Shown here in pieces: positions 4,151 through 53,100 of a stretch of 58,727 bases of DNA. The notes under the pieces are model-generated. The model was not told the DNA's origin, made no database searches, and saw only the letters and a list, made by a program, of their open reading frames with translations. Source of the stretch: a virus (taxonomy: Duplodnaviria; Caudoviricetes); the IMG/VR virus record IMGVR_UViG_3300032287_001165, positions 1 to 58,727 of that record; one strand, written 5' to 3'. Each line of letters begins with the position of its first letter. Within the stretch, counting starts at the first letter, position 1. Made by a program: the position numbers and the translations under genes.

Positions 4151-5379
4151 GCTGTGTAACTCCCAGACGAAGTAAACTTTAAGATGGTGTTTGCGCCTGA
4201 CGTAGTCACAGTTGGTGAGCCTGTAGTTGTTCCTGTGTAGTTGATTGTTGGAACTGCAAGGATGACAACACCAGAACTTCCCGTGCCGCCAGCATTATTG
4301 CCGCCACCACCAGTGCCGCCATTACCAGTGTTTGCGCTAACAGCAGTGCCGCCAGCGGCATAAGTTACTGCGGAGCCTGTGATAGAAACAGACAAGCCAA
4401 CTCCGGCAGTCGACCCAGATGCTGCGCCTCCAGCACCGCCACCAGCACCGGGGTTAAAGTTACCCGGGCCACCAGAGCCAGCATTTCCTTGACCTGACGT
4501 TGCTGTACCACCACTTGTAGCAGATCCAACACCGCCGCCACCGCCACCCGAACCACCATTTCCGCCATTACTGTTACCTGAGCCATAACCGCCACCTATA
4601 GCGGTCAAACTAAGACCAGTTGAATTAGTTCCTTGAGTACCGTTTGTAGGCGAACCGCCTGCACCTCCAGCACCGCCACCGCCAACAACAAACGAATATG
4701 TAGTCCCAGCACTCAATGTTGATGTGCCTTGCAATAAACCCCCAGCGCCAGCTGATCCGCCATTATTTACAGTGCTTTGAGCGCCACCACCACCGCCACC
4801 TCCGGCAACAATAAGATATGAAACTGGATACGAAGTGTACGCATAAATAACTGCCCAGCCTGTAGACTGATAAGCCTCATATTGGGAAATTGTGGTGTTG
4901 TAGCGCATCATTCCAACAAGCGGGCTTGCAGGTCTTTGTGCAGTTGTGCCAGCAGGTAAATCAAAATACCCAGTAGATGTGTTGTCTTGATCTGAAACTG
5001 CGGTTGGCGTTACTGATACTGTTTGCCAAGAATTATCGCCCCGCAAAAATGTAGAAGAACTTGCTGTTCCTGTTGCTGTTAAAGCAGTTAAACCAACCGT
5101 ACCCTGACCCGGCGCAATAACCTGCGTGATCGGGCTTGTGTAATACACATAAATGTTGTTCGTGCCGCTGGACGGGGCAGAGGTAAACGTGATGGTGTTG
5201 CTGCTGACTGTGTAAGCGTCCGATGGCTTTTGAGGCACATTGTTGACAACCACCTGCACCTGCGCCACAGAGGCCACTGGGCGAGACAACGTAAACGCCG
5301 TGGTCGAAGCATTCCCGCTGAAGAAATCTACAGCAGGTGTAAACGCCTGTGTGGTTGGAGTGTTGCCAAGAAAAGCCAT
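4147..5379 (-). CDS. Glycine-rich tail fibre protein
   Basis: 410 aa; LPAGTTAQRP...MRYNTT linker, YLIVAGGGGGG glycine-rich domain, ends FTSSGSYTA. Confidence 0.75.
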   Translation of the reverse strand: MAFLGNTPTTQAFTPAVDFFSGNASTTAFTLSRPVASVAQVQVVVNNVPQKPSDAYTVSSNTITFTSAPSSGTNNIYVYYTSPITQVIAPGQGTVGLTALTATGTASSSTFLRGDNSWQTVSVTPTAVSDQDNTSTGYFDLPAGTTAQRPASPLVGMMRYNTTISQYEAYQSTGWAVIYAYTSYPVSYLIVAGGGGGGGAQSTVNNGGSAGAGGLLQGTSTLSAGTTYSFVVGGGGAGGAGGSPTNGTQGTNSTGLSLTAIGGGYGSGNSNGGNGGSGGGGGGVGSATSGGTATSGQGNAGSGGPGNFNPGAGGGAGGAASGSTAGVGLSVSITGSAVTYAAGGTAVSANTGNGGTGGGGNNAGGTGSSGVVILAVPTINYTGTTTGSPTVTTSGANTILKFTSSGSYTA

Positions 5380-21810: not shown

Positions 21811-22203
21811 ATGAAACTCGCAACTTACATCAACCCACGCACATATCGTGCAATCGTGCCTACTCTGAAACTCGCAGACATTGAGTCTGCCAGTTTGCTT
21901 GATGTCCTACTCAACAATGGTGTAGGCACACGCAAGGATGCAGTGCCTTATGTCGTGTTCTATGTGACGCAACTGCCCAATGTCACACGCAAGCCTTACG
22001 AGGGTCAGCGGGGTTGGACATTCGGGCGAGGTACTGCTGAGCAGAAACGCACAGACAGGATTCTTGACAACATCTTTGTGGATGTGAACGCAGACGCAAA
22101 GAAACCAAAGGCAAGCAAGAAGAAAGACAAGGTTGCTCGTCTTGTGTCAGCGTATGAGGCAATGACTGCGGCTGAGAAGCGCCGCTTCTTGGCTTCAATC
22201 TGA
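21811..22203 (+). CDS. First early gene, hypothetical (MKLATYINP...)
   Basis: GGAGAG RBS supports start 21811; basic C-terminus. Confidence 0.75.
   Translation: MKLATYINPRTYRAIVPTLKLADIESASLLDVLLNNGVGTRKDAVPYVVFYVTQLPNVTRKPYEGQRGWTFGRGTAEQKRTDRILDNIFVDVNADAKKPKASKKKDKVARLVSAYEAMTAAEKRRFLASI
21869..21895. repeat. 27-bp palindrome copy 1
   Basis: AACTCGCAGAC-ATTGA-GTCTGCCAGTT (inside CDS). Confidence 0.85.
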
Positions 22204-22230
22204 AACTGGCAGACATCTTGTCTGCGAGTT
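22204..22230. repeat. 27-bp palindrome copy 2
   Basis: AACTGGCAGAC-ATCTT-GTCTGCGAGTT. Confidence 0.9.
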
Positions 22231-25118: not shown

Positions 25119-25145
25119 AACTGGCAGACATGGTGTCTGCGAGTT
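25119..25145. repeat. 27-bp palindrome copy 5
   Basis: AACTGGCAGAC-ATGGT-GTCTGCGAGTT. Confidence 0.9.
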
Positions 25146-27867: not shown

Positions 27868-29064
27868 ATGAGCTTTGAGAAGATGACACTCAACCAGCGC
27901 ATACAAGCGGTCAACATAGACTGCATGCGCCATCCAAAGTTTGCACTGCTAAGCGGTGTGATATGTATGGGCAAGTCTGAGGTATCAGACAGCGTACCTA
28001 CTGCATCAACCAATGGGCGTGACAAGAAGTATGGGTCAACATTCATCGCGCCACTCAACCGCAAGCAACTACGCTACCTTGTACTGCATGAGAACTTCCA
28101 TGTGGCACTCAAGCACTGCGTGTTGTATCGCGCTGAGGTCAAGCGCATGCCTAAGCTATCCAACATAGCACAGGACTATGTGGTCAACGCACTCATCGAA
28201 GAGCTTGACCCTGACTTCACATTCGTCGAACGACCAACGCAGACCCTGTTGATTGACCGCAAGTATTTCGGTTGGTCTTTCCCTCAGGTGATGAACGACC
28301 TCATCAAACAGGGGCGCAAGGAACCTGAGGAAGGTGATGGGGGTAACAATGAAGACCACGGGTATGACGAACCCATCGACGCGCATGAGGATGGTGAGTT
28401 TGCTGACGACGACAAAGAGAAGCTAAGCAAACAGATTGACGATGCCAATCGTCAAGGCGAGATGCTTGCTCGCAAGCTTGCGGGTAAGGGCAGTGCGGGG
28501 CGTGACATCTTTGGCAATGCCAAGGAACGCATGACTAACTGGATACCATCCATGCAAGACTGGATAACCGCTGTGTCCCAAGGCGATGACAACTCACGCT
28601 TTTGTCCTCCCAACAAACGACTGCTTGCATCTGGCTACCTCATGCCGTCGCACTTCACCGAGTCAGTCGGCGAGTTGATACTTGCACCCGACACATCAGG
28701 TTCTATGTATCCGCACTATCGTTTACTCTTTGGTGAAATCTCTCGCATCTGTCAGCTAGTCAAGCCCGAGACTGTTCGCATCTTGTGGTGGGATGACGCT
28801 GTGTGCGGCGAGCAAGTATTCAAACCAAATGAATATGAACTGATTGCATCTCTCTTGCAACCCAAGGGTGGCGGTGGCACAACTCCGCAAGTTGTTGTCG
28901 ACTACATCCGCGAGAACAAGATAGATGCCAAAGCAATCGTATGGCTGACCGATGGATACCTCGGTTGCGATACGCCTAGCACCCCGATGCCGTCACTGTG
29001 GGGTGTGGTGGACAACGACTCGTTCGTTCCCACTCACGGCAAGGTCTTGCATATCACTCTTTAA
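27868..29064 (+). CDS. Metallopeptidase + vWA-like protein (DUF2201 type)
   Basis: HENFH (HExxH), DTSGS MIDAS, GGGGT, LTDG. Confidence 0.85.
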   Translation: MSFEKMTLNQRIQAVNIDCMRHPKFALLSGVICMGKSEVSDSVPTASTNGRDKKYGSTFIAPLNRKQLRYLVLHENFHVALKHCVLYRAEVKRMPKLSNIAQDYVVNALIEELDPDFTFVERPTQTLLIDRKYFGWSFPQVMNDLIKQGRKEPEEGDGGNNEDHGYDEPIDAHEDGEFADDDKEKLSKQIDDANRQGEMLARKLAGKGSAGRDIFGNAKERMTNWIPSMQDWITAVSQGDDNSRFCPPNKRLLASGYLMPSHFTESVGELILAPDTSGSMYPHYRLLFGEISRICQLVKPETVRILWWDDAVCGEQVFKPNEYELIASLLQPKGGGGTTPQVVVDYIRENKIDAKAIVWLTDGYLGCDTPSTPMPSLWGVVDNDSFVPTHGKVLHITL

Positions 29065-29085
29065 TCAACACAAAGGAAAGCAATC

Positions 29086-30210
29086 ATGAATCAATATCTC
29101 TCTTCTTCACAAGTCATTGACCTCATCTCTGCTGTGGGTCACAAGCGCACCATCATCGTCGAGGGTGAGAACGGCATCGGCAAGACCGCGCTGTTCCATC
29201 AGCTCAAGCGTCTGCCCAAGTTTGCCAATCACATTGCCGTTGACCCCATCGACTGCACTCAGTTGTCCGATGGCTCGGTGTGGATGCCTGACCTTGACCG
29301 CGAGAACGGCATATCGCGTGAGCTTCCCAATGAACGCTTCGGTGTATCGAAGAACAATCAACGCGGTGTCAATGGTGGCAAGCCTGTGCTTATCGCACTC
29401 GACGAGATTGCCAAAGCACCGCAGTTCATCAAGAATGTTCTTGCACCTATCGTGTACGAACGCCGTATCGGCAACTACCACATGGTTGAGGGTAGCAGTG
29501 TCGTGTGCTTTACCAACCTATCTATCGAGGGTCTAGGGGACTCCATTCAAGCTCACTTGCGTAATCGTCTTGTGTTCGTCAAGATGCGTAAGCCGACTGC
29601 GGTCGAGTGGGTGCGTTGGGCTACCGATGCGGGTATCAATCCTATGGTCATTGCATTCGTTGACAACAACCCGATGGTGATGGACTCGTTCCTCGACTAC
29701 GAGAAGGGTGGCAAGTATGAGGGCAAGACACTTTCCAAGGACAACGGACACATCTACAACCCCAAGTCCACACAGCTCGCATACGCAACGCCTCGTTCGT
29801 TGACTGCCGCTGGTGACATCTTGGATGAAGGCATGCACGTACTCGACGACGACACACTTGAGCAAGCACTCATCGGTACTGTCGGTGTCGTTACTGCTGA
29901 GGCGATGGCATCGTTCGTTCGTTTCGGTCGTGACATCTGTGACTATGCACGCGTCATCGCTGACCCTGCTAAAGCACCGCTGTCCGACAACCCCACTGCA
30001 CAGTTGATTCAAGTCTTTCAGTTTGTGTCTCGCGCACAGACAAGAGAAGAAGCAGCAGCAGTCACTGAGTATGTATGGCGCATGCGTGCAGAGATGCAAT
30101 CAATCTTCTGCAACACAGTGTCCACATCTCAGCGTGTAGGCGTGTTCGTTACCAACACTAACTTCGGCAAGATGTTGGCTGAGCACAAAATCTTTTTCGG
30201 CACTAAGTAA
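29086..30210 (+). CDS. MoxR-like AAA+ ATPase
   Basis: GENGIGKT, IALDE, LRNR finger, TPRS. Confidence 0.85.
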   Translation: MNQYLSSSQVIDLISAVGHKRTIIVEGENGIGKTALFHQLKRLPKFANHIAVDPIDCTQLSDGSVWMPDLDRENGISRELPNERFGVSKNNQRGVNGGKPVLIALDEIAKAPQFIKNVLAPIVYERRIGNYHMVEGSSVVCFTNLSIEGLGDSIQAHLRNRLVFVKMRKPTAVEWVRWATDAGINPMVIAFVDNNPMVMDSFLDYEKGGKYEGKTLSKDNGHIYNPKSTQLAYATPRSLTAAGDILDEGMHVLDDDTLEQALIGTVGVVTAEAMASFVRFGRDICDYARVIADPAKAPLSDNPTAQLIQVFQFVSRAQTREEAAAVTEYVWRMRAEMQSIFCNTVSTSQRVGVFVTNTNFGKMLAEHKIFFGTK

Positions 30211-30230
30211 TCAACCAAAGGAAACCAACC

Positions 30231-31118
30231 ATGAATACAAACACATCTTCCCGTTACAACATCGACACATGCGCGATGCTTGTTGAATTCAACGCATCAG
30301 TGTGGACAGCTCGCAAGCTGGACAAGACAACAACCGATGAGGTTGTAGCAACCAAGCATGCCGCCGCGAAAGATGCGGCTCGCGTCAACAAGCACCTGCT
30401 TGCAGGTCGCACAGAGCTGGAGGTTATTCAGCAAGCTGTTGGTCGTGCGCGTCAATATGTTTACGACAAGACATCGCCTTGGTCTGACTCAGGCTTGCGC
30501 TTGTTGCCCAACATATCGTTCATGTCTTTCACAGAGAAGCTTGATGACTTCGAGCATGAGTTCACTGCGTTGGTCAAGTCGTTCGTGACAATCTATCCAT
30601 CGTTGATTACCGCACAGGCGATGGCGTTGGGTGACATGTTCAAGAGAGATGACTACCCAAGCGCGAATGAAATCATGACCAAGTTCTCGTTCCGCGTGAA
30701 CTACATGCCCGTGCCCACATCGGGTGACTTCCGCGTAGATGTAGGCAATGCCGCACAAGCTGAGTTGAAAGCACGACTGGACAAGCTGACACAGGAACGC
30801 ATTGACAACGCGATGGCAGATGTACGCGAACGCCTCAGTGCCCACCTCAAACGCATGTCAGACAGGCTGACCACTGACTATGTGCAAGGTGAAGCTAAGC
30901 CCCGCCGTTTCCACGACACGTTGGTGGAAGGTGCGCTTGAGTTGTGTGACCTGACCAAGGCACTCAACATTGTGAACGACCCCGCGTTGGAGACAGCGCG
31001 TCGTGACCTCGAACAAGTACTGGTTGGTGTCACGCCAACTGAGTTGCGTAAGAACGAGGCGGTGCGTCAAGATGTCAAGAAGAATGTTGACGCAATCTTA
31101 AGTAAGTTCAGTTTCTAA
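30231..31118 (+). CDS. DUF3150-like protein
   Basis: VWTARKLD...K.L...PW...G.RLLP...DYP..F pattern; usual partner of AAA/vWA pair. Confidence 0.6.
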   Translation: MNTNTSSRYNIDTCAMLVEFNASVWTARKLDKTTTDEVVATKHAAAKDAARVNKHLLAGRTELEVIQQAVGRARQYVYDKTSPWSDSGLRLLPNISFMSFTEKLDDFEHEFTALVKSFVTIYPSLITAQAMALGDMFKRDDYPSANEIMTKFSFRVNYMPVPTSGDFRVDVGNAAQAELKARLDKLTQERIDNAMADVRERLSAHLKRMSDRLTTDYVQGEAKPRRFHDTLVEGALELCDLTKALNIVNDPALETARRDLEQVLVGVTPTELRKNEAVRQDVKKNVDAILSKFSF

Positions 31119-31133
31119 GAGGAGGGAACACTC

Positions 31134-31655
31134 ATGCCTGATTTAAAGACCGCGCTTACCACAGCGCTTTCATCGTGGGAACAAGACGACCAGAAAATTC
31201 AACAGGAGAAGAAATTGCCAAAACATATATTCACACCAACCAACAATGTGACGCAAGAGACATTCAACTATGTCAAAAACAACCCAAACAAGAACAGTGG
31301 TGAGATACGCGCCGCGCTTGTTGCGCGGGGGTTCAATGATGGGTCAGTAGGTTCTCTCATCACACAGTTCACAAAGCAAGGGCAGTTTGTGAAAGACCAC
31401 AATGGCAAGTACAAAACCATCGCGTCAACATACACCCCACTGAAATCATCCAAGCACTTTAGGGTAGAGGGTAAGACCAAAGTCAAAACAAAGGTGCCAT
31501 CAGTTAAGACAAAGCCACGCAGTGAAGGCATTGCCGCGCTGGCACCTCAAGTTACAGCAACAACTCAGTGGGATGCAGACACCATCATCAACAATATTGG
31601 CTTGAAACAGGCGCGAGCTTTGTATGATGAGCTGAAGAAGCTGTTCGGAGGTTGA
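31134..31655 (+). CDS. Putative winged-helix DNA-binding protein
   Basis: Central TFNYVKNNP...EIRAAL...SLITQF..QG pattern; GAGG RBS. Confidence 0.55.
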   Translation: MPDLKTALTTALSSWEQDDQKIQQEKKLPKHIFTPTNNVTQETFNYVKNNPNKNSGEIRAALVARGFNDGSVGSLITQFTKQGQFVKDHNGKYKTIASTYTPLKSSKHFRVEGKTKVKTKVPSVKTKPRSEGIAALAPQVTATTQWDADTIINNIGLKQARALYDELKKLFGG

Positions 31656-31657
31656 CC

Positions 31658-31777
31658 ATGTGGGATGTACTGGTGACGGTAATTTTGATGGGCTTCGGTG
31701 CGCTGATGGTTGTCGTCATCGGTGCATTTTTCATTGCGGCAATTTTTTATGTACAGAACGGGGGCAAGGATGATTGA
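31658..31777 (+). CDS. Small membrane protein, 39 aa
   Basis: GGAGG RBS; MWDVLVTVILMGFGALMVVVIGAFFIAAIFYVQNGGKDD. Confidence 0.65.
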   Translation: MWDVLVTVILMGFGALMVVVIGAFFIAAIFYVQNGGKDD

Positions 31778-32412: not shown

Positions 32413-32572
32413 AGCAATCAGAACATTCTTTGGTAAAGTGCGCGGCTCACATGGTGAGCGCAAGACAATCGTTGAGCAGGGGTTGGTGTACAGATGCACT
32501 AGCTGCAATTTAATTTTCTTAACAAGAACCGCAGGGGAACAACATCAATGCCAAGACCCAAGACTGAACTGA
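32405..32572 (+). CDS. Small Zn-finger protein, 55 aa (YRCTSC...HQC)
   Basis: AAGGA RBS; hand translation. Confidence 0.6.
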   Translation: MLEAIRTFFGKVRGSHGERKTIVEQGLVYRCTSCNLIFLTRTAGEQHQCQDPRLN

Positions 32573-32709
32573 CGACCAACCCAAAGATTGTTGGGGCGCG
32601 GTTAACACAAGAGCTGTTCAAAGAATGGCGCAAGCTTGGCGGGGCAGTGTGGTTACGCAAGTATCTGGAAGAACACAAACAACGACGGGAAAAAACAAAC
32701 AAAGGCTAA
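32548..32709 (+). CDS. Ribbon-helix-helix-like protein, 53 aa
   Basis: MPRPK...VGARLT..LFKEWRKLGGAVWLRKYL. Confidence 0.6.
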   Translation: MPRPKTELTTNPKIVGARLTQELFKEWRKLGGAVWLRKYLEEHKQRREKTNKG

Positions 32710-32858
32710 GCGCGTATTTCAATTGTGGCGGGTGTAAGCCTAGTAGATGTGACCACATCGCCACGGACAACAGCAACGCTTAGCCTTGGGAAGAAGCTGT
32801 TGTTCGGCTTTCCGACCGTGAACCGAGGGGGCGCGGAATCTACTTGACCCCCTCACCA
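32704..32858 (+). ncRNA. Putative structured, pseudoknotted ncRNA
   Basis: At least six complementary segment pairs in 155 nt of essentially non-coding sequence. Confidence 0.5.
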
Positions 32859-32874
32859 ATTCAAAGGAAACTGT

Positions 32875-33159
32875 ATGGCATCGACACCGGAAGTAAAAGT
32901 AAAAAAGCAAATCCGAAAACTGTTGGATGAGCTGGGCGTGTACTACGCCATGCCCATCGGCACGGGCTACGGCAACTCAGGGGTGCCAGACTTTCTGGTA
33001 TGCGCCAATGGTAGGTTTATTGGCGTGGAAGCAAAGGCGGGGAAGAACAAACCGACCTTGTTACAAGAAGAACATATGCGCCGCATAAGAAGCGCAGGGG
33101 GAGTGGCAATGGTGGTGAACGAAGACAACATAAACGAATTGAGAAAGGTACTGACATGA
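32875..33159 (+). CDS. VRR-NUC nuclease
   Basis: PE..VK...GVPDF...FIGVEAK...PT.LQ. Confidence 0.9.
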   Translation: MASTPEVKVKKQIRKLLDELGVYYAMPIGTGYGNSGVPDFLVCANGRFIGVEAKAGKNKPTLLQEEHMRRIRSAGGVAMVVNEDNINELRKVLT

Positions 33160-33425
33160 AAGACGAAGATACTTTAGAAGCGCGGTTGGCGCTGATGGAT
33201 GACGATGAGAAGACGCACTTCAAGATGGCAGTCCTTGCCCTTGTCACGTGCTACGGCCCTGACCCAAACCAAGCGGTGCTGATGATTAAAAACAAAGGCG
33301 AGCTGTCACGACTTACCACAATGAACTGTGATGAGATGGAGGCAGCAGAGATATTGTTGGAAGTCAACAGTTTTTTCGGATTCTTAAACACTATCGACGC
33401 ACCCCCTAAAGAGGCATTCAATTGA
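33156..33425 (+). CDS. Hypothetical protein
   Basis: ATGA overlap; 89 aa. Confidence 0.7.
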   Translation: MKDEDTLEARLALMDDDEKTHFKMAVLALVTCYGPDPNQAVLMIKNKGELSRLTTMNCDEMEAAEILLEVNSFFGFLNTIDAPPKEAFN

Positions 33426-43941: not shown

Positions 43942-44128
43942 ACCGGGCGAGGGGTTTTTTGTTCCCGGACTGGACGTAGAAAAGGTAAGGGAGTTGGGGC
44001 TACGCGCCTCAATTCCCTACAAGTACCGCACTCAAGCGTTTGTTGGCATCAGAAAGGGATTGATAGGTGTATGGTTTTATCGGAAACCTCTCTCACCGTT
44101 TGAGCTACGGCGATCTTTATCTTCCTGA
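43910..44128 (+). CDS. Small conserved phage protein (YPWATLKPGEGFFVP)
   Basis: GAGG RBS; last plus-strand gene. Confidence 0.65.
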   Translation: MEIIYPWATLKPGEGFFVPGLDVEKVRELGLRASIPYKYRTQAFVGIRKGLIGVWFYRKPLSPFELRRSLSS

Positions 44129-47100
44129 TCTGGTCAAGTTGCTCACGCTTGGCTTCTGGTGTCATGCTTGATGCGGTGATTGCACGTTCGGCCTGAGTCA
44201 ACTTGTTCATGTTTGCTTTGAACTTGTTGGCCAAGTCTGCTTGCATGTATTCGTTGCCACGACGTTGGAGCAAGTCTTTGGCTTCCGACATACGCCCTTC
44301 CGCAACCATCCTGTCGAACGACTGTTTGACTTTGAGGTTCTCGTTCATGCGCTCATACACACTGTTGATGATGCCGCCAGCGTCGTTGGGTTGGAATGCC
44401 CCGCCAATGATTGGGTAGTCCGACAGCCGCTTGACCGCTTGCTCAGGAGTCTCACCTGTTGGTACGCCAACACTGAGTGCGTGCATGAACGCCAAGCCCA
44501 TCGTGCCTGTGTAGCCGCTGATGAGTTGCTCAAACACGATTGGGGAGATACCGAAAGCCTTACCGACCGACTTGGCCAGCTCAGATGTATTGGCGCGGAA
44601 CTGTTCTTCTGGTAACAGTTCTTTCTCCCGCGCAGACAGGATGTCCCTGCCTGTGTAGAACGACTTGCCAAGACCTGCCTCAATGGCGGGTTTCAAAGCC
44701 TGAGGTATGCCATAGGACGAACCGCCGGGGACTGTCTGCAACAAAATTTGTTTGAACGCCTTGACTGCTTCTTCGCCGCCATGCTCGTTGACCATGCTGT
44801 TGTACAGCGCCTCCGGCAATGCTTTGAAGATGTATCCAATCTCAAATGGGACGGGGATGCGCACAGGTTCATCCAGTCCGGGCACTCTCACAAACCAGTT
44901 GCCGTATTTCTGGTCAGGGGTAGCGTTCTTGTACGCGTCGTCGTCCTGCATCAAGGCGGCGTAGGCGAGGCTGGCAACAGCCATCATGGCTCCACGTTGC
45001 AACAACTTCTCACGGATACGCACCTGATCGTTGAACGGCATCTTGCCCATCGACGCTTTGTACAGCACGTTCAGACCTTGAATCTGGGCGTTGAAGAACG
45101 GGATCAGCGAATTGGCCACATGAACTGATGGGGATGCGCCACGCTTGTTAAAGTTCATGGACTCCAACGCCAGCAGTGTTGCCTCCATCTCAGACAGACC
45201 CTGCTCAATGTAGCTGTTGTACTGTGCACGACGTGTTGTGGCATCTGCCTCCATGCTCATGGCTTCAAGCTTACCCAGCGCAGTCATCCAACCCGGTTTG
45301 CCCTCAGCTACGTCACGCAGAATCTTGGTCAGGTCTGCGGCTCCACCAGTAAATTGCTGCCCACCAGTAACACCACGGCGCTCAAGTGTCTTTTTGGTTG
45401 TGGAGTTCAGTTCTTTCAATGCACCAATGACCGGCATAAAGTCTGCGCCAGAAAGAATAGGCGCGGCCAAGGAGTCACGGAACAATTGTTTTGCTGTGTA
45501 CAGCGGGCTGATGGTAATTGCTTTACGCAACAACTGAGATGGCATCGCCATTACACGCAGCATTGTGGGCATTTGTGTGGGAATACCCTTCATGCCTTTG
45601 ACCAGTATGTCGGCGGGCACACCAGTATCAAACTCTTTGTTGCCGATCTTGACTTTCTCGGTAGCAATCACAGCATAGCGATCTTTGCCGTCATCACGAA
45701 ACTTAACTACGTCAGGGCCGTCCGCAATTTTCACAAACTTAGCAGCTTTGAGATCAACCAATTCAAACACAGCGTTCTTGGTAGCCAAATTACGCATACC
45801 CATGTCCATCAACATGTTGGTGTTCTGCACCGAGCTTGTCATGAAATCAAGGATGGGTTTGTCGCCACCTATCAACTCATGTAAGTACGGTTGTTCAGCA
45901 ATACTGCCAATGCGGATGGGGGACTCGCCACCAATTAAAAGCTCGGCCACGCCGTTGCGTTCACGATAAAACGGGATGTAATCGTTCTCACTTAACAAAC
46001 GCTTGGCCACATCTTTAGACAAAGCACCAGTGCTAACAACAAACTCAACCAAGTTGCGGTTGTACGCGTTGTACTCATCTCGCGCAAGTTTAAGCACATC
46101 CTCTAGGCCGGGTGTAGCCTTGATGGCGGCCATAGTGTCATCCAGCAGTTCTTGAGTCACATCTTCACCAAAATTCAACGTGCTCAGCCCTTTGTTCTTT
46201 GCGCGAAGTGCGGCCATATACAAAGTAAAAACACTGTTCACAGCTTCTGCGTTGCCCACCATAGGTTGTGCGTCTTTCAGAATCTGCACCACGTTGTGAA
46301 TGTTGGCGCTTTCCTTGCTCTCTATCACACGCTCAACACGCCCATCTGGGCGAGTCTTCTCCACGATTGCAGGTGCGCCGTTGGAGATTGCTTGCGACAC
46401 AAAGTTCATGCGCTGGTCGTACATGCGCAAGTAGTACAGCATCTGCGTGCCTTTGAGTGGCTCCATGTATTTGGCCAAACGCTCGAAGCCTGCAAACCTG
46501 TCCACAAGCTGTGTCTCAAAAGCCAGACCGGTCAAGTTGGCTTTAATTTTCTGCCACAAACTTCTGTCCTTGGCCACAATCTTTTTGATAAAACCGCCAC
46601 GCTTGGCAATCTCAGGGTTTGTGAAATCTGCGGCACGCGAGAACAGTATCTCGCCTTTTTGCATTGGTTGTGTTTGATTGATTGGGTTGATGTCAGTAGC
46701 GATGATCTGCGCACCTTCATCTTTATCACCAAAGTCAACATAGTTGTATGTACCGGGTACTCCTGAGCTTGTAGCAGAATATCTTGATACACCATCAAAA
46801 AACTTAATACCCGCAACACCTTCAGCGTGCAACATCTCAGATGCAAACATGTCGCACAACTCACTTGGCATACCGTTTTGTTCAAGCACGGCACCTAAAG
46901 CGTTATACAAATCACGCCCATTTTGTCGGTCTGCCCGCACATGGCCTATTGAACGGTTAAACACTGCTTGTTGTTTTTTGTCCAATGAATCGTAAATGCG
47001 TTTGAACGCGTCTTTAACAACTTCTGGTTGTTTGTCTGCGTGGCTATCATAAAGAATGTACTCGTTTTCTGGACGCGTATGCAATGTGCGCATCATGTAG

Positions 47101-50100
47101 CCTGCTGGCTCAGGTACAGGTGGTGCCGACGCAGGGTTATATTGGAAATCGTTTACATCAAACGCATCAATAGCGTTTACAGTTTCTTTTGCTTCGTCGT
47201 ACACTTGTTTTGTGTAGGGGTCTTTTCCATAAGTAAAACGCTTAAAGAAATCTTCAAATTCTTTTAATGTTTTGGTTTCTTCGGTTTTCACACGGGCAAT
47301 AGCTTCTTTCCAAGACGGCGGTACACCGTCGTTGGCATCCATCATTTTTTCAAATGCGTGTATAACTTTTGCGGCAGCTATGTTTGTTTTATACGTGTCA
47401 ATGTAATCTTTGCCTCTGTAAACAGGCGCGTAATAAACAGCTGCCAAATCTGCATCTGCCGTTTCTGCAAACTTTTTAAGTTCTTGAATTTTTTTATCTA
47501 CTTCTTCAAGTGATAATCCGCGCATCCATTCAACACGCCAGCTTGTAGGTTTTGCTACTGTTTTTACGGCAACAGGCCCGTACCCGTAGTTTCTAATTGG
47601 GGTAGCAGTTACGCGTGTAGGCGTACCCATTGCCCTAACTTGTGCTGCGGTTATAGGTATAGCAGTTCGCGTTGGTTTTGCAGATGCGGGTAAATTTGCT
47701 AAAGGATATTTTGGTTTCTCCGCCTCAATGTTTTCTATTTCGCCTTGAATCGCTTCTTTAAAAACTTTATGTGGGTTTTCAATGCCGTTTGCGTTACCCG
47801 CTTCGCGCAAAGGCATATTTAAAAACTGTTCTGGAATACCTGCTGGCAGTTTACCTACAAATCTGGGTTTTTGGCTTTCAAACCATGCTTGTATATCCGG
47901 GCGATCAATCCATTGGTCATAAAGGCCGCCTATTTTTGTAACTGCTTCTACACGGTAAGATTCAGCAGTGCCGTATTTTTGTGCGCGATATGTTCCCCAA
48001 CCATATGATTGGGCTTTTGAACCCGTGTTCATATACGTATGGTCAAACATATCAAACTTGACGCCTGTACCGTGCCAAGTTCCTTTGAGTTCAAGGTGTG
48101 CCGCGCCGTAGGCAAAGTTCACCAAGTCTCCAGCAGTCAAGTTTTTGGCGCTGATACCAAACTTCTCAAGCGCTTTTCTAAACCCATCCACCACCATCTT
48201 CAACCAGTTCTTGACTGCGTTGCCGCCTTTAACACCGACAGGCTCAACACCCATCTGCATAGCTTCTTCAACAGCGTATGCCAACAACTCATCGTCAATC
48301 TGGTGTGGGGGAGTGTTAGCAGCCTCAACCCTGCGCACGGCGGCTTTACCAACACGCGCCTCCATTGAGTCTTCAGTTTTGTTTGCCCAGTTCTTGACTG
48401 TTTTGACCAACGCGTTGTACTGGCCTTCGTTAAAGAAGTTGCGGAACCCCATGTGCACGCCAACTTCGTGGAGCAGCACGCCAAGTCCGTGGCCTTTACC
48501 GATGTTGTTGGCAAACAGTACCGCTTTGCCGTTTTGTACAAAGCCTTTGGCATCTGCTGGAATTAAACCCTCGTATTCAGATTTGCCTGTACTTTTTAAT
48601 TTTGGTTGCTTATCAAGAAAATCTTGAACACTCTCATACACCGCCAATTTATTGGACACCAGCGCTTCAACCTTACGCCCAGTCACAGGCTCGCCCATAC
48701 CGGCGGTGAGTTCTGCTTCAAGCTCAGCCTTGGTCAGACCTTTTACGGGGGTGCCGCGAGAGAACTCAAAGTCATCAAACAACCCCATGTTGGGGTCAAG
48801 CATTTTTCCTTGCTTGCGTTTGCTTGGTTCTTTTAACTGTGGTGCTTTGGTACCAAAAATCTTTTTGGACAAGTCATTGGCATCGCGTATCTCAGCGCGA
48901 TTCATCTCATCCAGTTCTTCTGGCGTAAGTGCTTTAGTTACGCCTGACCCAGTGCGAAATGGCTTAGCCGCCGCCAACGCGGCGGTGCTCGGCACAGTAG
49001 CAGCCTTTGGTTCGGGAGCAGGTTTGCCTGCAAGGAACACTTCTTTCTGCGCTTCCAACGAAGCCAGCTTTTGCATAGCGCCCAACTTGAGCGTAGCTTG
49101 TACACGTTTGACGTTGGTTGTCTTGGGGTCGGCCATGATGTCGGCCAACTGATCCATGTTCTCAGGCCCCATGAACGACTGCACTTCACCACGTGCGTCA
49201 AAGATCTCGTCATCAAATATTTGAGTTTGTTTGTCTTTGACGCGTTGAAGCACTTCGGCTTCATCAACTTCTTTGGCTGCTTGCATGCCTTTGTCACGCA
49301 GATCATCAAGGCGCTTCTGCTCAGGCGTGCTGATCTCAGCAACTTTGCGGCCTTTTTCAAACACTGCGCCGGGCAAGTCTTTAACGCTGATGCCGTCTTT
49401 CTTGAACGCAGCAGTGACTTTGGGCCACCAGACCTGCACATCTTTCTGGAACTCTTCTGCACGTTTTTGCGCTTCGTCTACAGCAGCCTGCTGTGCTTTT
49501 ACTTGCGATTCCAAACGCTGTGCGGCAAACGGGTATTTGAGTTTACCTAGCGCACCCACTCTACCAGTCTCAACAGCCGTCAGTGGCTCCTTGCGCATAG
49601 TTGCAAGTTGACGCTCAAGCAACTCCAAGTACTCCCGTTCTGCCTTGAGGTCTTTGTCCAGCATTGCTTCAGTGACGACAACATCGTTTTCAATTTCACC
49701 AAAGCGTGCTTCTTGCAGGTCGGCCAGTTCTGTTTCAGCCGCCTCAATGTTCTCAACAAGCCCTTGAACTTTTTGCAAGTTGTTAATCAGGTTTGGCGCT
49801 TGGCCAGTACCCTCAGTCATTTCTTTCTTAGCCGCTTCAATCTGCGACTCAACTGTGGCCAGACGTGTCTTAGCAGCTTTCAAAGCACGACGTGCGCGTT
49901 CAATTTCAGGGTCAAGCAACTCACCCAACGTATTAGACAGGCGTTGACGGGCTTTGCCCATCGCCTTGGCCATGGCATCTTTGTAAGCGCCGCGTTGTGA
50001 TTGCAACGCAATTTCGGAGTCAAGCATTGCGCGTTGACCGTCAGTCAAAAAAACAGAGTTACGCAAACTGTCTTTGATGAGCTTTAACTTTTCCAGTAGT

Positions 50101-53100
50101 GGTTCAACAGTTTTGCGAGCTGCTTCTGATTGTTTACGCACAGCCGCATTACTGTCTTGCATCAGTTCAACTAAACGGTTGTTTGTGCTTTCAAGACGTT
50201 GCCCCAATGAAAGTGCTTGCAGAGCCTGCTTAACGTTCTTTTCGTACTCAGGAATTTTGTTTGTGTTGAAGTCTTGAATTAACTTGTTTACTTTTTGTTT
50301 TTGTTCTTCAGTAAACACAGACATTGCTTTTTCTTGTTGCGCAGCCGTCTTACCAATATTTTGTCTGGATACTTGCAAGTAACGATCCATCAGCAGCTTG
50401 TCTTCTTTTGTAACGCCTGCTTCTGGATATGACGCAAACATTTTTGCAATGTCTGCGTTCGAGTACTTGCCAATATTGAAGTCTCCCGGCTTAAGCAGGA
50501 AAAACTGCATTTGATTTTTAATGGCTTCAAGTTGTTCTTCTATTGCTTCAACTTGCGCAAAGCCTTGTTTGTCTCTGGCAGAACGTGCTTTTTGTTTGGC
50601 TTCTGTTTTTGCTTTGACTTTGCGTGCTTGCGCTAACGCTTCCCACACAGGTTTGATTTGTGGGGACTTGGCAAAGTTGGCGGCAGTGGCGCGGATGTAC
50701 CCCAGCTCTTTACGTGTTTCAGGGAACAACTGGCCTTGACCTTTTTCGCCTTCTCCAACCGCTTCACCTTCCTGAGCTGTACGTTCATACAGCTTAATGG
50801 CATCTTGAAGCTCACGCAATGAGCTACCTTCGGGTGCCAGTTCGGCTTCGTAACTTACCGTTTTGTATTTGCGCCCACGTTCTCCAAAGCGTGTTTCTGC
50901 TTCTCTGCCGGGGACATTCTCTACAACGCGTTTGCCGGAAACTGCTTCGCGTTTTGTGTATACCTGTTTGCCAAGGTCTTCGCCGCGCAAAATGCGGGCG
51001 GCTTGATTCTGGGCTGCGTCCAACAATGTTTTGCTGGCTTTGCCGTCGTCAATGATTTCTTTGGCACGTTCCAGTGAGTTTTGAATTTCTTCCGGCGGGT
51101 TGCGTGTCAGCGCTTTGTCTATCATGTTGCCCACGTATTCACGTAGGCGGCGCATTTCTCCACCAGTCGTCTTGGCTGTTTCACCACGGGCTTCGGCAAC
51201 CTTTTGCGCTTCAGTGGCGGCAAACTGTTGTTTCAGTACAGGAACTTCGCGGGTAGCTGTGGATGGCAGTTGGGATAAGTTGTCAACAACTTTGGCAATC
51301 TGGGCTTTGAAATGCTTGACTTCCTTGTCGCTCAGACGGGCAATCTCATTCAACGGCGTGGTGGCCAGATCACGGGTCTTCAAAACACGTTTGGTAACAG
51401 CGCCACGGATAAGTTTGTTTGCCCGCATCTGCGCTGGCTGCACCACTACTTCTTCAAGCTCAGGTTTCACAGGCGCTGCCTGTGCACGGCTCAACCATTC
51501 ACCCACCACATCATGAATGCGCGACGCGGCCTTGATAGCTTCGTCGTAAGTCAGTTCGGGTTTACCCGAAACACGGCGGTGGATGGCAGCTTCTTCCAAC
51601 ACGGCAGATATGTACTTGCCACGGGCTTCTTCAGCTTGCTTGGCCAACATTTCGGGGGTGGCAGCAGCCACACCTTTGCCGGGTTCTACACCTTCTCTGC
51701 CCAAAGCATCACCACGGCGCAGGCGGTCAATCTTGTCTTCAATCGTGTTTAAAGCCGTGTTTTGTTCATTTCGTACACGCAGTACTTCCCGGGCATAAAC
51801 GCTGGCTTGTGGGCTTGTTTTGGCGCTGGGGAAACGCCCTTTTGTCAGTTCTCCAGCAGGTGTGGGTTCTGCAAAAGCGTTGATTTGCTCAAGTGCCTGA
51901 TTGCCTCTTTCAAATGCTGCGGTTGCAGCGTCACGGTTGTTTGAACGCAGTGCGGCATCTCTGTCCGTATTAGCTTGGTCTATTTCATCCAGCAACGTGT
52001 TTATCTTTTCCCGCGAACGTTCTGCCATTTTGGGCTGCGTGAACGGTTTCAGCTCAGGGTTTACCGCTATGACTGGGGGTTTACCTTCAGCAATCTTCTC
52101 CAGCTTCGGCTCGACCATGTACTTAAAGAACATGTCATCACCAACGTCATCACGCTGGCTCTTGAGGTCGTCCATGTAAGACGTAAACGCCTGTACTTGC
52201 GGAGATTCTTCTGTCGGTTGAGGCACACCAAACGCGGTCTTGCGTGCGCCCATTTCTTGTTCAAAGGCGGTTTTTTCAGCGGTGGCTTTCTCTTTACGCG
52301 CAGGCGCAAGTTGCAATTTCAGCGCGTCCAACACCGCAGAATTACGCACACCGGTGGGCAATCCGGGCAGTTGCATTCTGTTGCGTTCAATGTCTTCAGC
52401 CAAGTTGGGGTTACGCATCAGGTATGCGACGTAGTCGGCCACCGCTGCGTTGGGGGCTTTCTCACTGGCAAGTTGCTGGTTGTTGGCCAACTGAATACTC
52501 TCAGCGGCATACCGCGTCGCAGCATCTTCCGCCTTCGGTGCCGTGGGCGGCACGATTTCTTGGTCGTAATACATCCGTGGTTCGGATGGCGCTTGTGCGG
52601 CTTCTTCTGGCTTCAAACCCAACGCATACTCGTACGGGGTCAGCTTGGCAACCTTCTCTTCTTCAGCAGCACGTTTCAGAATAGGCTTGACACGTACATA
52701 CTCATCCGCCAACGGTTTGAGTTCTTTGTTTATGGCTTCAATCTGGCGATTGATTTCGCGGTTGTTTGCATAGTCCGTTTCTGGGGATATGCCTTTCTTT
52801 ATGGGGATCAGCTGCGACTTGAGCGCCTTACGCTGGGCTTCCAAGTCCTGCGTCTTCTGGAACACTTCTTGGGCGTACTCAGGGCTGTTCAGCCGTATCT
52901 TTTCTTCTTCCTGCTGTTTCTCAGCTTCAGCACGGGCTTGCTTCACCTCATCTGTAAGCGGAGTTGTGGGCGCACGGCGACCGATAGCTAAGTCCAACAA
53001 CCCTTGTGCCAACGCACCGACTGCACCGCCGTAGGCAGCAGACTCACCAACCTGCTCAATGATTTCTTGCTCAGGTTTATATATACCTTTGGTAATAATG

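What the first reader, a model, noticed from the sequence alone, without database searches (positions are those of the whole stretch)
32704..32858. Densely paired, pseudoknotted intergenic RNA ending in a 7-bp stem plus ACCA
Seen: GGCTAAGCG(32704)/CGCTTAGCC(32777); GTGGCG(32725)/CGCCAC(32759); CACGG(32762)/CCGTG(32816); ACAACAGC(32767)/GCTGTTGT(32796); TCGG-CTTT-CCGA; AGTAGAT(32742)/ATCTACT(32838), the latter in the loop of GAGGGGG/CCCCCTC, followed by ACCA. Two pairings cross other helices and some are mutually exclusive. It is not a cloverleaf and I cannot match it to a known family. It sits at the head of the replication genes in an otherwise gap-free region. Inference: a novel ribozyme, switch or tRNA-acceptor mimic.
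Basis: partly seen in the sequence, partly recalled or inferred. Interest (0 to 1): 0.7.

Follow-up and report, generated by a model that had tools for sequence, protein, structure and literature searches.

The report
New pseudoknotted phage leader RNA
The gap in front of this phage's DNA-replication genes encodes a conserved, intricately knotted RNA of about 150 bases that matches no catalogued RNA family, is shared by many uncultured freshwater phages, and most likely controls how the replication genes are expressed.

Summary
Window 32704-32854 (+) is one copy of a structured RNA found in 251 full-length phage and metagenome copies: 151 distinct sequences in 48 clusters at 85% identity.

Crossings A×C, D×E and the long-range helix F make it multiply pseudoknotted. 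G·U outnumbers A·C 151 to 9, so the + strand RNA is what is selected.

Rfam 15 gives nothing significant. ARAGORN finds no tRNA or tmRNA.

The element travels with the downstream VRR-NUC/replication module, whereas the upstream genes fall into 14 unrelated families.

My best reading is a new cis-acting leader RNA that gates translation or mRNA fate of the replication operon. The effector is unknown. Riboswitch, ribozyme, RNase P-type minihelix mimic and antiterminator remain open.

The parts
32704..32712 (+). Helix A, 5' strand (GGCTAAGCG). It contains the TAA stop (32707-32709) of upstream ORF 32548..32709 and pairs with 32777-32785.
   Evidence: In one search, 9 of 9 pairs show changes on both sides and 95.9% of cells pair in 70 distinct sequences. 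In one search the stop codon lies in or within 12 nt upstream of this strand in 37 of 54 distinct cases; the automatic frame choice was wrong for some of the rest, the window among them.
32725..32764 (+). Hairpin B/B2. The outer stem is 32725-32730 / 32759-32764 and the inner stem is 32731-32734 / 32754-32757. Its loop carries the conserved gCCtnGTAGATGYga motif.
   Evidence: B pairs in 84-87% of cells with 6 of 6 pairs covarying; B2 pairs in 85-98% with all pairs covarying. In one search the pair 32731-32757 is among the top mutual-information pairs. One search gives the consensus.
32742..32748 (+). Helix F, 5' strand (AGTAGAT), in the loop of hairpin B. It pairs over about 95 nt with 32838-32844.
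   Evidence: The outer pair reads AU 42, UA 21, GC 8, GU 1 and other 2 of 76 distinct. The six inner pairs never change and pair in 98.7% of cells.
32765..32774 (+). Helix C, 5' strand. It abuts B and pairs with 32796-32805. It lies inside helix A while its partner lies outside, which makes pseudoknot A×C.
   Evidence: 10 of 10 pairs change on both sides and 95.7-96.6% of cells pair. In one search the seven strongest mutual-information pairs are all in C.
32777..32785 (+). Helix A, 3' strand (CGCTTAGCC).
32796..32805 (+). Helix C, 3' strand.
32806..32815 (+). Junction J, single-stranded and pyrimidine-rich (CTTTCC here, YTCC in most lineages). It is complementary to the Shine-Dalgarno core 32866-32870.
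   Evidence: In one search, RNAalifold on a sequence-only alignment predicts 4 J:SD pairs, 126 of 136 cells paired by my count from its table. In one search the YTCC-like motif occurs in 34 of 45 cluster representatives that have a called start. In one search there is no own-versus-cross difference (-4.48 against -4.53 kcal/mol).
32816..32820 (+). Helix D, 5' strand (CCGTG).
   Evidence: In one search, 5 of 5 pairs form in 34 of 34 sequences of a MAFFT alignment, with six sequence variants; 98.3-98.9% paired, 3 of 5 pairs covary.
32825..32831 (+). Helix E, 5' strand (GAGGGGG). It lies in the loop of D and abuts D's 3' strand with no linker, which makes the H-type pseudoknot D×E.
   Evidence: 96.8-99.2% paired. 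The two outer pairs covary and the five G-C pairs never flip.
32832..32836 (+). Helix D, 3' strand (CGCGG).
32838..32844 (+). Helix F, 3' strand (ATCTACT). It lies in loop 3 of the D/E pseudoknot.
32848..32854 (+). Helix E, 3' strand (CCCCCTC).
32855..32874 (+). G-poor A/C-rich tail (ACCAATTC...) with the ribosome-binding site AAAGGAAA. It leads to the VRR-NUC start at 32875, and the start codon lies 22 nt after helix E.
   Evidence: The spacing is mostly 17-45 nt in 58 distinct J/SD combinations, with a mode of 22-25.
32875..33159 (+). VRR-NUC-type nuclease gene, the first gene of the replication module that the RNA precedes.
   Evidence: phrog_93 endonuclease, 1.7e-16. In one search it is the first downstream gene in 56 of 78 distinct elements and lies within 2.5 kb in 17 more.

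Best explanation
SHOWN: window 32704-32854 (+) is one member of a widespread, previously uncatalogued family of structured RNAs of about 150 nt from uncultured freshwater-type phages.

The RNA has two pseudoknotted halves. In the 5' half, helix A encloses hairpin B/B2 and crosses helix C. In the 3' half, helices D and E form an H-type pseudoknot. The two halves are tied together by a 7-bp long-range helix F, which joins the loop of hairpin B to loop 3 of the D/E pseudoknot.

The RNA is made as part of the sense-strand message. It begins at the stop codon of whatever gene lies upstream and ends about 20 nt before the start codon of the first gene of the replication module.

INFERRED: it is the cis-acting leader of that module and acts after transcription. 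The folded core sits at the edge of the ribosome-binding region. A conserved pyrimidine junction (YUCC, 32809-32813 here) can pair with the Shine-Dalgarno core. Whether the triple-pseudoknot fold is formed, or is stabilised by a still unknown ligand or protein, would then decide how well ribosomes start on VRR-NUC and the genes coupled to it. It could also decide how long that part of the message survives.

The sequence-invariant core (GUAGAUG, GGGGGCG, AAUCUAC, C-run) is taken to be the recognition or tertiary-contact surface.
For: Structure:
-, 76 distinct sequences: 91.1% of cells paired against 71.4% in shuffles; covariation score 0.483 against 0.151; 0 of 500 shuffles as high.
- Sliding the partner strand by 1-3 columns drops pairing to 40-50%.
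- Helix A has 9 of 9 covarying pairs and 95.9% pairing.
- One sequence per 85% cluster (46) gives 94.8% against 70.5% and 0.558 against 0.143.
- A structure-blind mutual-information ranking puts the proposed pairs on top.
- D, E and F are already perfect in a sequence-only MAFFT alignment.

Strand: G·U 151 against A·C 9.

Single copy per genome.

Link to the downstream module:
- VRR-NUC is the first gene in 56 of 78 distinct elements and lies within 2.5 kb in 17 more. Four have flanks too short to tell and one has none.
- The upstream ORFs fall into 14 unrelated families.

Intercistronic position: the upstream stop lies in or next to helix A, which leaves no room for a promoter of the element's own.

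A ribosome-binding site follows helix E, with a modal spacing of 22-25 nt.

RNAalifold on the MAFFT alignment independently predicts J pairing with the SD around the E hairpin. One pair changes CG to UA in 8 sequences.

Contigs from two metatranscriptome libraries run from inside the element into VRR-NUC: X15 record 6 covers 32739-33180 and X18 record 26 covers 32811-32961. This is weak, because DNA carry-over is possible.
Against: - The SD is not part of the conserved fold, and its distance from helix E varies from about 17 to 45 nt, up to 64-67 in a few lineages.
- J:SD complementarity is no better for a sequence's own SD than for SDs of other lineages (-4.48 against -4.53 kcal/mol).
- The L018/L023 group breaks 2 of the 4 J:SD pairs.
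- In the lineages around L116, L120, L092 and L424, a near-consensus sigma-70-like promoter (TTGACA, 16-17 nt, TATCAT or TAGTAT) lies between the element and the VRR-NUC start. There the gene can probably be expressed without the element in its mRNA.
- No conserved alternative (switching) helix was found.
- No ligand, protein partner or transcript end is known.
- Invariance of the core is partly by construction for loci found with DNA patterns. Only the 62 element-bearing loci found through the protein are free of that bias.
Confidence: 0.45

Rival explanations
1. tRNA-minihelix mimic used as a processing and stability signal. Helix E (acceptor-like, G:C closing pair) stacked on helix D (T-stem-like, 5 bp), followed by A-C-C, is recognised by RNase P, or by RNase Z or the CCA-adding enzyme. 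Cleavage at the L1/E boundary would free a replication-operon mRNA whose 5' end is buried in helix E.
For: D is 5 bp in 144 of 151 distinct copies. E is 6-8 bp in 132 of 151. E+D equals 12 in 83 and 11-13 in 128 of 151. No linker separates the E 5' strand from the D 3' strand. The closing pair is G:C in 113 of 151. The base after E is A in 115 (C in 36, which are mostly register slips). The tail is ACC in 89 of 151 (crude register). The topology is the same as the pseudoknotted acceptor arm of plant-virus tRNA-like structures, which RNase P can cut (recalled, not from a call).
Against: There is no cloverleaf and no tRNA or tmRNA call. No T-loop-like motif was seen by eye in the consensus; this was not searched formally. 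ACCA as such is not conserved. Stems of 5 bp and 6-7 bp are ordinary sizes for any H-type pseudoknot. This reading gives no role to helices A, B, C and F or to the invariant loop motifs. No RNA end is known (one search shows none, but contigs cannot show ends).
Confidence: 0.15
2. A new class of self-cleaving ribozyme, or a glmS-like ribozyme-switch, that cuts the polycistronic message between the early genes and the replication genes.
For: It has a compact multi-pseudoknot fold with invariant nucleotides in loops and junctions. It sits between cistrons in phages, where many small ribozymes are found (recalled). Its size of about 150 nt fits.
Against: There is no match to any ribozyme family of Rfam 15, even at E up to 10. 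The helix order (F, D, E, D', F', E') differs from the HDV-like nested double pseudoknot by my own comparison with the recalled HDV topology. No cleavage site can be named and there is no RNA-end evidence.
Confidence: 0.1
3. Transcription-level element. One version is a cis-acting RNA that modifies RNA polymerase for processive antitermination, as the put RNAs of phage HK022 do. The other is a regulated Rho or pause site at the early to delayed-early boundary.
For: The position is analogous to nutR and putR, after a small early ORF and before the replication genes (recalled comparison). It needs no fixed spacing to the SD, which fits the variable tail. It also tolerates the lineages with an extra promoter. 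The tail is C-rich and almost free of G. The + strand gene block is about 22 kb long.
Against: No terminator-like site follows the element, and terminator-like hits in 21-41 kb number 29 against an expected 21.5 ± 4.6. The G-poor tail is only 10-45 nt long and is then covered by translation. put RNAs are two plain stem-loops (recalled), not pseudoknots. No evidence bears directly on polymerase.
Confidence: 0.1
4. Origin or primer RNA. The invariant G-run of the transcript re-anneals to the C-run of the template, giving a persistent R-loop (ColE1 RNA II style). The rest of the fold controls that step, and the element is inherited with its cognate replication proteins.
For: The five G-C pairs of helix E never flip or change in 46 cluster representatives, while helices A, B and C flip freely. 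The element is linked to the replication module rather than to the upstream genes.
Against: The C-run partner is also in the RNA, and the outer E pairs covary as an RNA helix. No AT-rich unwinding region or iterons were seen. Invariance is equally explained by tertiary contacts. No composition-skew turn is centred here.
Confidence: 0.05
5. Not a functional RNA: chance complementarity, a DNA-level inverted-repeat site, or a hidden small ORF.
For: The single-sequence folding z-score is only -2.0, and the reverse strand folds nearly as well. A 40-codon ORF (32725..32847) overlaps it.
Against: There is covariation in all helices, with 0 of 500 shuffles reaching it. G·U exceeds A·C 151 to 9. Indels of non-triplet length between relatives, and an immediate stop after the conserved ATG in the window, argue against coding. 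The element occurs in 48 sequence clusters.
Confidence: 0.01

Closest known systems
Autoregulatory pseudoknot in the leader of phage T2/T4 gene 32 mRNA (recalled; also mentioned in passages of PMC10690425)
   Same: It is an H-type pseudoknot in the leader of a phage DNA-replication gene. It lies a few tens of nucleotides upstream of the start codon and is followed by an unstructured G-poor tract. Stem 1 is about 5 bp, stem 2 about 7 bp, and loop 1 is very short.
   Different: Here the pseudoknot is one of two. Its loop 3 is paired to a distant hairpin loop (helix F). The whole element is about 150 nt with an invariant core. The first gene is a VRR-NUC nuclease, not the single-strand-binding protein. 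No binding protein is known.
Pseudoknotted acceptor arm of plant-virus tRNA-like structures such as TYMV, and minimal RNase P hairpin substrates (recalled)
   Same: The strand order is the same: S1 5' strand, short loop, S2 5' strand, S1 3' strand, loop, S2 3' strand, then A-C-C. The coaxial stack is about 12 bp.
   Different: The element is internal to a DNA phage's polycistronic mRNA, not a 3' terminus. CCA is not conserved. There is no T-loop or anticodon-arm equivalent and no tRNA call. Loop 3 is 11 nt long and base-paired.
Riboswitches that use a regulatory loop-loop helix next to the ribosome-binding site, such as the L5-L13 kissing loop of cobalamin riboswitches, and pseudoknot riboswitches (SAM-II, preQ1-II) (recalled)
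   Same: A long-range loop-loop helix joins a conserved sensing domain to a hairpin that sits just upstream of the ribosome-binding site. Nucleotides at pseudoknot junctions are invariant.
   Different: No Rfam riboswitch family matches. The SD is outside the conserved fold. No ligand can be deduced from the gene context.
Candidate structured RNAs predicted in bulk from IMG/VR (Fremin, Bhatt and Kyrpides 2023, PMC10690425; I saw the abstract, outline, matched passages and section 2.4)
   Same: It uses the same data source (IMG/VR phage contigs) and the same kind of evidence (covariation, position within 25 nt upstream of a gene).
   Different: The main text names no motif upstream of VRR-NUC: a search of the text found 'nuclease' and 'DNA polymerase' 0 times. 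Its list of 879 gene-proximal candidates is in supplementary tables that I could not open, so prior listing cannot be excluded.

Membership tests
tRNA / tmRNA | Cloverleaf or tRNA-like domain recognisable by ARAGORN; a tag-peptide reading frame for tmRNA. | tested here: not met
   0 genes in the whole window.
Viral tRNA-like structure / acceptor mimic | A conserved 3' ...ACCA, or ACC completed to ACCA, at the RNA terminus. | tested here: not met
   the tail is ACC in 89 of 151 and the fourth base is T 62 / A 56 / C 33. The element is followed by a ribosome-binding site and a gene on the same strand.
Viral tRNA-like structure / acceptor mimic | A coaxial acceptor plus T-stem helix of about 12 bp. 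| tested here: met
   E+D equals 12 in 83 and 11-13 in 128 of 151 (crude register). There is no linker between the E 5' strand and the D 3' strand.
Viral tRNA-like structure / acceptor mimic | Aminoacylation, CCA addition or RNase P cleavage. | not testable with these tools
   This needs enzymology.
Any Rfam 15 family (riboswitches, ribozymes, leaders, sRNAs) | A covariance-model score at or above the family's gathering threshold. | tested here: not met
   (whole window) gave 0. One search (20 relatives' loci, 135 kb) gave 0. Permissive searches gave 0 hits or only hits with E of 1 or more and 10-16 bits, far below gathering.
H-type pseudoknot (structural class) | Two stems in which the loop of stem 1 pairs with sequence 3' of it, with short loop 1, both stems supported. 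| tested here: met
   D pairs in 98.3-98.9% and E in 96.8-99.2% of cells, each with covarying pairs. Loop 1 is 1-4 nt in 137 of 151.
Riboswitch (generic) | A conserved aptamer plus an expression platform with a mutually exclusive, conserved alternative pairing. | tested here: inconclusive
The conserved core is present. A possible J:SD pairing is predicted but without own-versus-cross specificity.
Intrinsic terminator | A G+C-rich hairpin immediately followed by a U-tract. | tested here: not met
   One search finds no terminator-like site at 32700-32875. The tail after helix E is ACCAATTC.
T4 gene 32-type translational operator | A leader pseudoknot upstream of the gene of the protein that binds it (single-strand-binding protein). 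| tested here: not met
   The first downstream gene is VRR-NUC. No Pfam family (E up to 0.01) or PHROG family (E up to 0.001) was found for the two small ORFs that follow. Binding cannot be tested.
HK022 put-type antiterminator RNA | Two stem-loops acting in cis on RNA polymerase, giving terminator read-through. | not tested
   The features are recalled. The architecture here is different (pseudoknots) and the function needs transcription assays.

The most novel reading that the evidence does not exclude
The element is the aptamer or catalytic core of a new class of riboswitch or self-cleaving ribozyme. Through it a whole clade of freshwater phages would couple the start of genome replication to a small-molecule signal, for example a nucleotide pool or a host alarm nucleotide. 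Its triple-pseudoknot architecture would be without precedent among known classes.
Probability: 0.3. Interest if true: 0.85.

Novelty: new variant of a known kind. Interest (0 to 1): 0.66.

Why it matters
Complex RNA folds with several pseudoknots and an invariant core have so far nearly always turned out to be riboswitches, ribozymes or parts of ribonucleoprotein machines.

It sits exactly at the switch point between the early genes and the DNA-replication genes. It is inherited together with the replication module.

If it senses a ligand or a protein, it would be a new control point for the timing of phage replication. If it is cut by RNase P or by itself, it would show 'tRNA-punctuation'-like or ribozyme-based operon processing in DNA phages.

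In either case the alignment and models made here (A6, R3) give a ready family definition for databases and for bench tests.

Tried and rejected
Searches and tests that led nowhere, and readings I rejected:

1. Rfam: nothing at gathering thresholds. Permissive searches gave no hits or only chance-level hits.

2. ARAGORN: nothing.

3. Cultured phages. There was no DNA match in the 50,697-record phage collection, with the 1.1-kb region or with the 53-nt core at E up to 10. The low-complexity filter may mask the G and C runs. The nearest cultured VRR-NUC relatives are at most 44% identical. Pseudomonas phage Rollin and Xanthomonas phage Xp15 carry no element. A 12-nt match to the loop motif in Rollin is antisense to a gene and has no partner motifs, so it is chance.

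4. Bacterial and archaeal genomes. Of 120 pattern hits, 0 had both flanking hallmarks.

5. More distant VRR-NUC loci (17 and 7) have no element by models R2 and R3.

7. Anti-SD covariation: own against cross duplex energies are equal. The apparent link 'no SD, no YUCC' broke down with locus L424 and with start-codon miscalls.

8. Sigma-70 promoter and terminator scans are not above chance.

9. Sequencing runs. Only assembled contigs were on hand. They show that relatives' element and VRR-NUC are contiguous in two RNA libraries. They show no ends, no strand, and no proof of transcription. Parts without cover mean nothing.

10. HDV-like topology is rejected because the helix order differs (my reasoning against the recalled fold).

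11. A coding explanation is rejected.

12. The internally deleted copy in L092 was considered as a 'minimal core'. With 3 nt between helices F and E the three helices can hardly coexist there, so I treat it as a decayed copy (inference).

Supplementary tables of PMC10690425 could not be seen and may list this motif.
Full report
WHAT IS THERE. The window is a phage record (one search says so). It has terminase and portal genes on the minus strand. A block of about 22 kb on the plus strand holds small early ORFs, then a VRR-NUC nuclease, a family A DNA polymerase, a PD-(D/E)XK exonuclease, a helicase and a primase-helicase. I found no phage RNA polymerase among the proteins scanned. Between ORF 32548..32709 and VRR-NUC (32875..33159) lies a 165-nt gap, the only sizeable one between 29086 and 35564.

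IS IT MORE THAN CHANCE? On the single sequence, hardly. The minimum free energy is -60.5 kcal/mol with z = -2.0, and 8 of 200 shuffles fold as well. The opposite strand gives z = -1.8. The answer comes from relatives.

Collecting relatives went as follows.
- A protein-guided search with VRR-NUC returned 80 IMG/VR loci, the best 80 of 179 confirmed. Of these, 62 carry the element and 18 do not, one of which is cut off.
- A pattern taken from the most conserved core found it in 72 more IMG/VR loci. Another 42 hits were chance matches and 3 were partial or variant copies.
- A stricter gapped pattern found 120 metagenome contigs.
- The total is 251 full-length copies, 151 distinct sequences and 48 clusters at 85% identity.
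- Each locus, and the window, has exactly one copy apart from weak reverse-strand shadows of the palindromic helices.

THE FOLD. I built two covariance models from eight close relatives, because pseudoknots cannot be put in one model. R1 contains A, B, B2 and E. R2 contains B, B2, C and D. I aligned the family to each and counted pairs.
- On 76 distinct sequences, 91.1% of 3323 cells are standard pairs against 71.4 ± 0.5% after shuffling partners. The covariation score is 0.483 against 0.151, with 0 of 500 shuffles as high. Sliding the partner by 1-3 columns gives 40-50%.
- Helix C (32765-32774 / 32796-32805) has changes on both sides in 10 of 10 pairs and pairs in 96.6% of cells.
- Helix F (32742-32748 / 32838-32844) pairs in 98.7%. 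Its outer pair reads A-U 42, U-A 21, G-C 8, G-U 1.
- Helix E (32825-32831 / 32848-32854) pairs in 96.8%, with its two outer pairs covarying.
- Helix A, fitted in the other alignment, has 9 of 9 covarying pairs and pairs in 95.9%.
- With one sequence per cluster (46) the figures are 94.8% against 70.5%, and 0.558 against 0.143.

These alignments are fitted to part of the structure, which favours it. Three checks do not depend on that.
- In a plain MAFFT alignment, D is fully paired in 34 of 34 sequences with six variants. E is fully paired in 33 of 34 and pairs 6 of 7 in L022. F is fully paired in 34 of 34, and L022 carries a compensatory change in F.
- E and F were never part of model R2, yet they pair in 97-99% of cells on its alignment.
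- A structure-blind mutual-information ranking with average-product correction puts the proposed pairs in essentially all of the top 23 places. It adds one pair, 32731-32757.

Helix A crosses C, D crosses E, and F crosses A, B and E. The supported helices share no nucleotide.

WHICH STRAND, WHICH MOLECULE. G·U pairs outnumber A·C oppositions 151 to 9, and 88 to 7 in the second alignment. So the plus strand, the sense strand of the flanking genes, is what is selected. That means RNA, or far less plausibly single-stranded DNA of that strand. The covariance models themselves favour G·U slightly. A coding explanation fails: relatives differ by indels of non-triplet length, and the conserved ATG is followed at once by TGA in the window.

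CONSERVATION PATTERN. Across 46 cluster representatives almost everything varies except four things.
- The loop motif gCCtnGTAGATGYga.
- The inner pairs of D.
- GGGGGCG.
- AATCTAC, and the C-run.

The five G-C pairs of E and six pairs of F never change, while A, B and C flip freely. Part of this invariance is built in, because two of the three collecting searches demanded those motifs. In the 62 element-bearing loci found through the protein alone the core is also invariant. The remaining 17 full loci of that set, and 7 further loci found with a divergent VRR-NUC, have no element detectable by R2 or R3.

CONTEXT.
- Downstream: of 78 distinct IMG/VR elements, VRR-NUC is the first gene (within 70 nt) in 56 and follows within 0.2-2.4 kb in 17. 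Four have flanks too short to tell and one has none within 2.5 kb.
- Upstream: the upstream ORFs belong to 14 unrelated families, from 50 to 410 residues. In almost all cases they stop 32-47 nt before helix F, that is, in or just before helix A. In the window the TAA is at 32707-32709, inside A. The automatic frame choice was wrong for several sequences, the window among them.
- What this means: the element is intercistronic, has no room for a promoter of its own, and is inherited with the downstream replication module.
- Tail: a ribosome-binding site follows, and the distance from helix E to the start codon has a mode of 22-25 nt and a usual range of 17-45. The tail is A/C-rich and nearly G-free.
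- Exception: in the lineages of L116, L120, L092 and L424, a near-consensus promoter-like TTGACA, 16-17 nt, TATCAT or TAGTAT sits between the element and the VRR-NUC start.
- RNA libraries: contigs of relatives run from inside the element into VRR-NUC in two libraries. This is compatible with co-transcription but proves nothing about ends, strand or even transcription.

HOW IT MOST LIKELY WORKS. What is shown is a conserved sense-strand RNA fold at the head of the replication module. What is inferred is a cis-acting leader acting after transcription.

The 3' domain is a textbook H-type pseudoknot. D is 5 bp in 144 of 151 copies, E is 6-8 bp in 132 of 151, loop 1 is 1-4 nt in 137 of 151, and there is no loop 2. 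Its 11-nt loop 3 is held by helix F to the loop of hairpin B in the 5' domain.

Just upstream of D lies a conserved pyrimidine junction (YUCC-like in 34 of 45 representatives with a called start). RNAalifold, run on the sequence-only alignment, pairs this junction with the Shine-Dalgarno core around the E hairpin. Four pairs are predicted, 126 of 136 cells paired by my count, and one pair changes CG to UA in 8 sequences of the window's group.

This suggests a gate on ribosome access whose setting depends on whether the long-range fold is formed or is stabilised by a ligand or a protein.

Against this reading:
- The J:SD complementarity is generic: own -4.48 against cross -4.53 kcal/mol.
- One lineage breaks it.
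- The spacing is variable.
- The promoter-bearing lineages keep the element although VRR-NUC may not need it there.

I therefore give the cis-regulatory reading 0.45. Within it I do not choose between riboswitch and protein operator.

RIVALS.
(a) Minihelix mimic. E on D makes a stack of about 12 bp, exactly 12 in 83 of 151 copies (crude). It has a G:C closing pair in 113 of 151 and is followed by A and mostly CC. This is the shape RNase P, RNase Z and the CCA-adding enzyme accept (recalled). But ACCA is not conserved, there is no T-loop, and such stem lengths are ordinary for pseudoknots. I give it 0.15.
(b) New self-cleaving ribozyme, 0.10.
(c) put-like antiterminator or another transcription-level device, 0.10.
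(d) Primer or origin RNA using the invariant G-run, 0.05.
(e) Other, including a trans-acting RNA or pairing of F between two molecules, which covariation cannot tell from pairing within one. This takes the remainder.
Chance, DNA-only or coding explanations are excluded (about 0.01).

COMPARISON WITH WHAT IS KNOWN. No Rfam 15 family matches, there is no tRNA or tmRNA and no terminator. The closest analogues by working principle are recalled, not tested. They are the gene 32 leader pseudoknot of T-even phages, kissing-loop and pseudoknot riboswitches, and the pseudoknotted acceptor arm of plant-virus tRNA-like structures. It is a member of none of them; see the membership table.

A 2023 survey predicted 10,006 candidate structured RNAs from IMG/VR and related sets (PMC10690425). 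I saw its abstract, outline, matched passages and section 2.4. The motif may be in its supplementary tables, which I could not open. Its main text does not mention a motif upstream of a nuclease or polymerase gene. A full-text search for VRR-NUC with 'RNA motif' and 'phage' found 0 papers. Three other survey papers (PMC5737381, PMC2864571, PMC10085705) were seen only in the search listing.

VERDICT. This is a real, abundant and uncatalogued pseudoknotted RNA family at the head of phage replication modules. The structure is firmly supported and the function is open. Interest is 0.66. Novelty: a new variant of a known kind, namely a structured phage mRNA leader. There is a 0.3 chance that it is a new riboswitch or ribozyme class.

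Noticed in passing
window 44049-53774 (-): A 3241-residue ORF whose only Pfam match is LPD38 ('large polyvalent protein associated domain 38', residues 2945-3123, 2.5e-30). Its two PHROG matches have unknown function. It is not recognisable as an RNA polymerase.
   Followed up: partly
window 21874-21890 (+), 22209-22225 (+), 25124-25140 (-): Three near-identical 17-nt inverted repeats of the form GCAGACA-3 to 5 nt-TGTCTGC lie in the early region. They turned up as 'terminator-like' hits and could be operator sites.
   Followed up: no
L116 (- strand of locus, about 5130-5165 in the reversed frame), L120 6150-6185, L092 3390-3410, L424: In these lineages a near-consensus promoter-like TTGACA, 16-17 nt, TATCAT or TAGTAT lies between the RNA element and the VRR-NUC start, which follows 6 nt after the -10 box. 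This could give a leaderless or nearly leaderless mRNA.
   Followed up: partly
L092 3318-3365 (+): A natural internal deletion of the element removes the 3' half of hairpin B, helices C and A (3' strands) and junction J. It keeps the F, D and E complementarity, with D carrying one bulge.
   Followed up: partly
L119 and L137 (- strands): This variant has the usual loop motif mutated (GTATAT) and a second possible partner for the AATCTA loop (TAGATT) a few bases downstream.
   Followed up: no
window 31697-31728 (+): A 14-pair hairpin followed by TTTTCATT lies in the 54-nt gap after ORF 31134..31655, about 1 kb upstream of the element. It is a possible terminator at the end of the preceding gene set.
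   Followed up: no
window 27868-31118 (+): A gene trio lies upstream: a DUF2201 metallopeptidase/VWA-like protein, a PHROG 'ATPase', and a weak DUF3150 match just below the Pfam cut-off. In some relatives (L113, L147) a roughly 400-residue ORF is the gene directly upstream of the element, and it looks by eye like a homologue of the DUF2201 protein; I ran no family search on it.
   Followed up: no
L438 2501-2782 (Pseudomonas phage Rollin, OR577172.1 42723-43004): The best cultured-phage relative of the VRR-NUC protein (43.6% identity) lies in a stretch with no annotated gene in the record.
   Followed up: no
window 32822-32874 versus L018-L023, L029: The 3' core, the ribosome-binding site and the first codons are 96% identical to a group whose VRR-NUC protein is only about 80% identical and whose 5' domain is diverged. 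This suggests recombination within the element.
   Followed up: no
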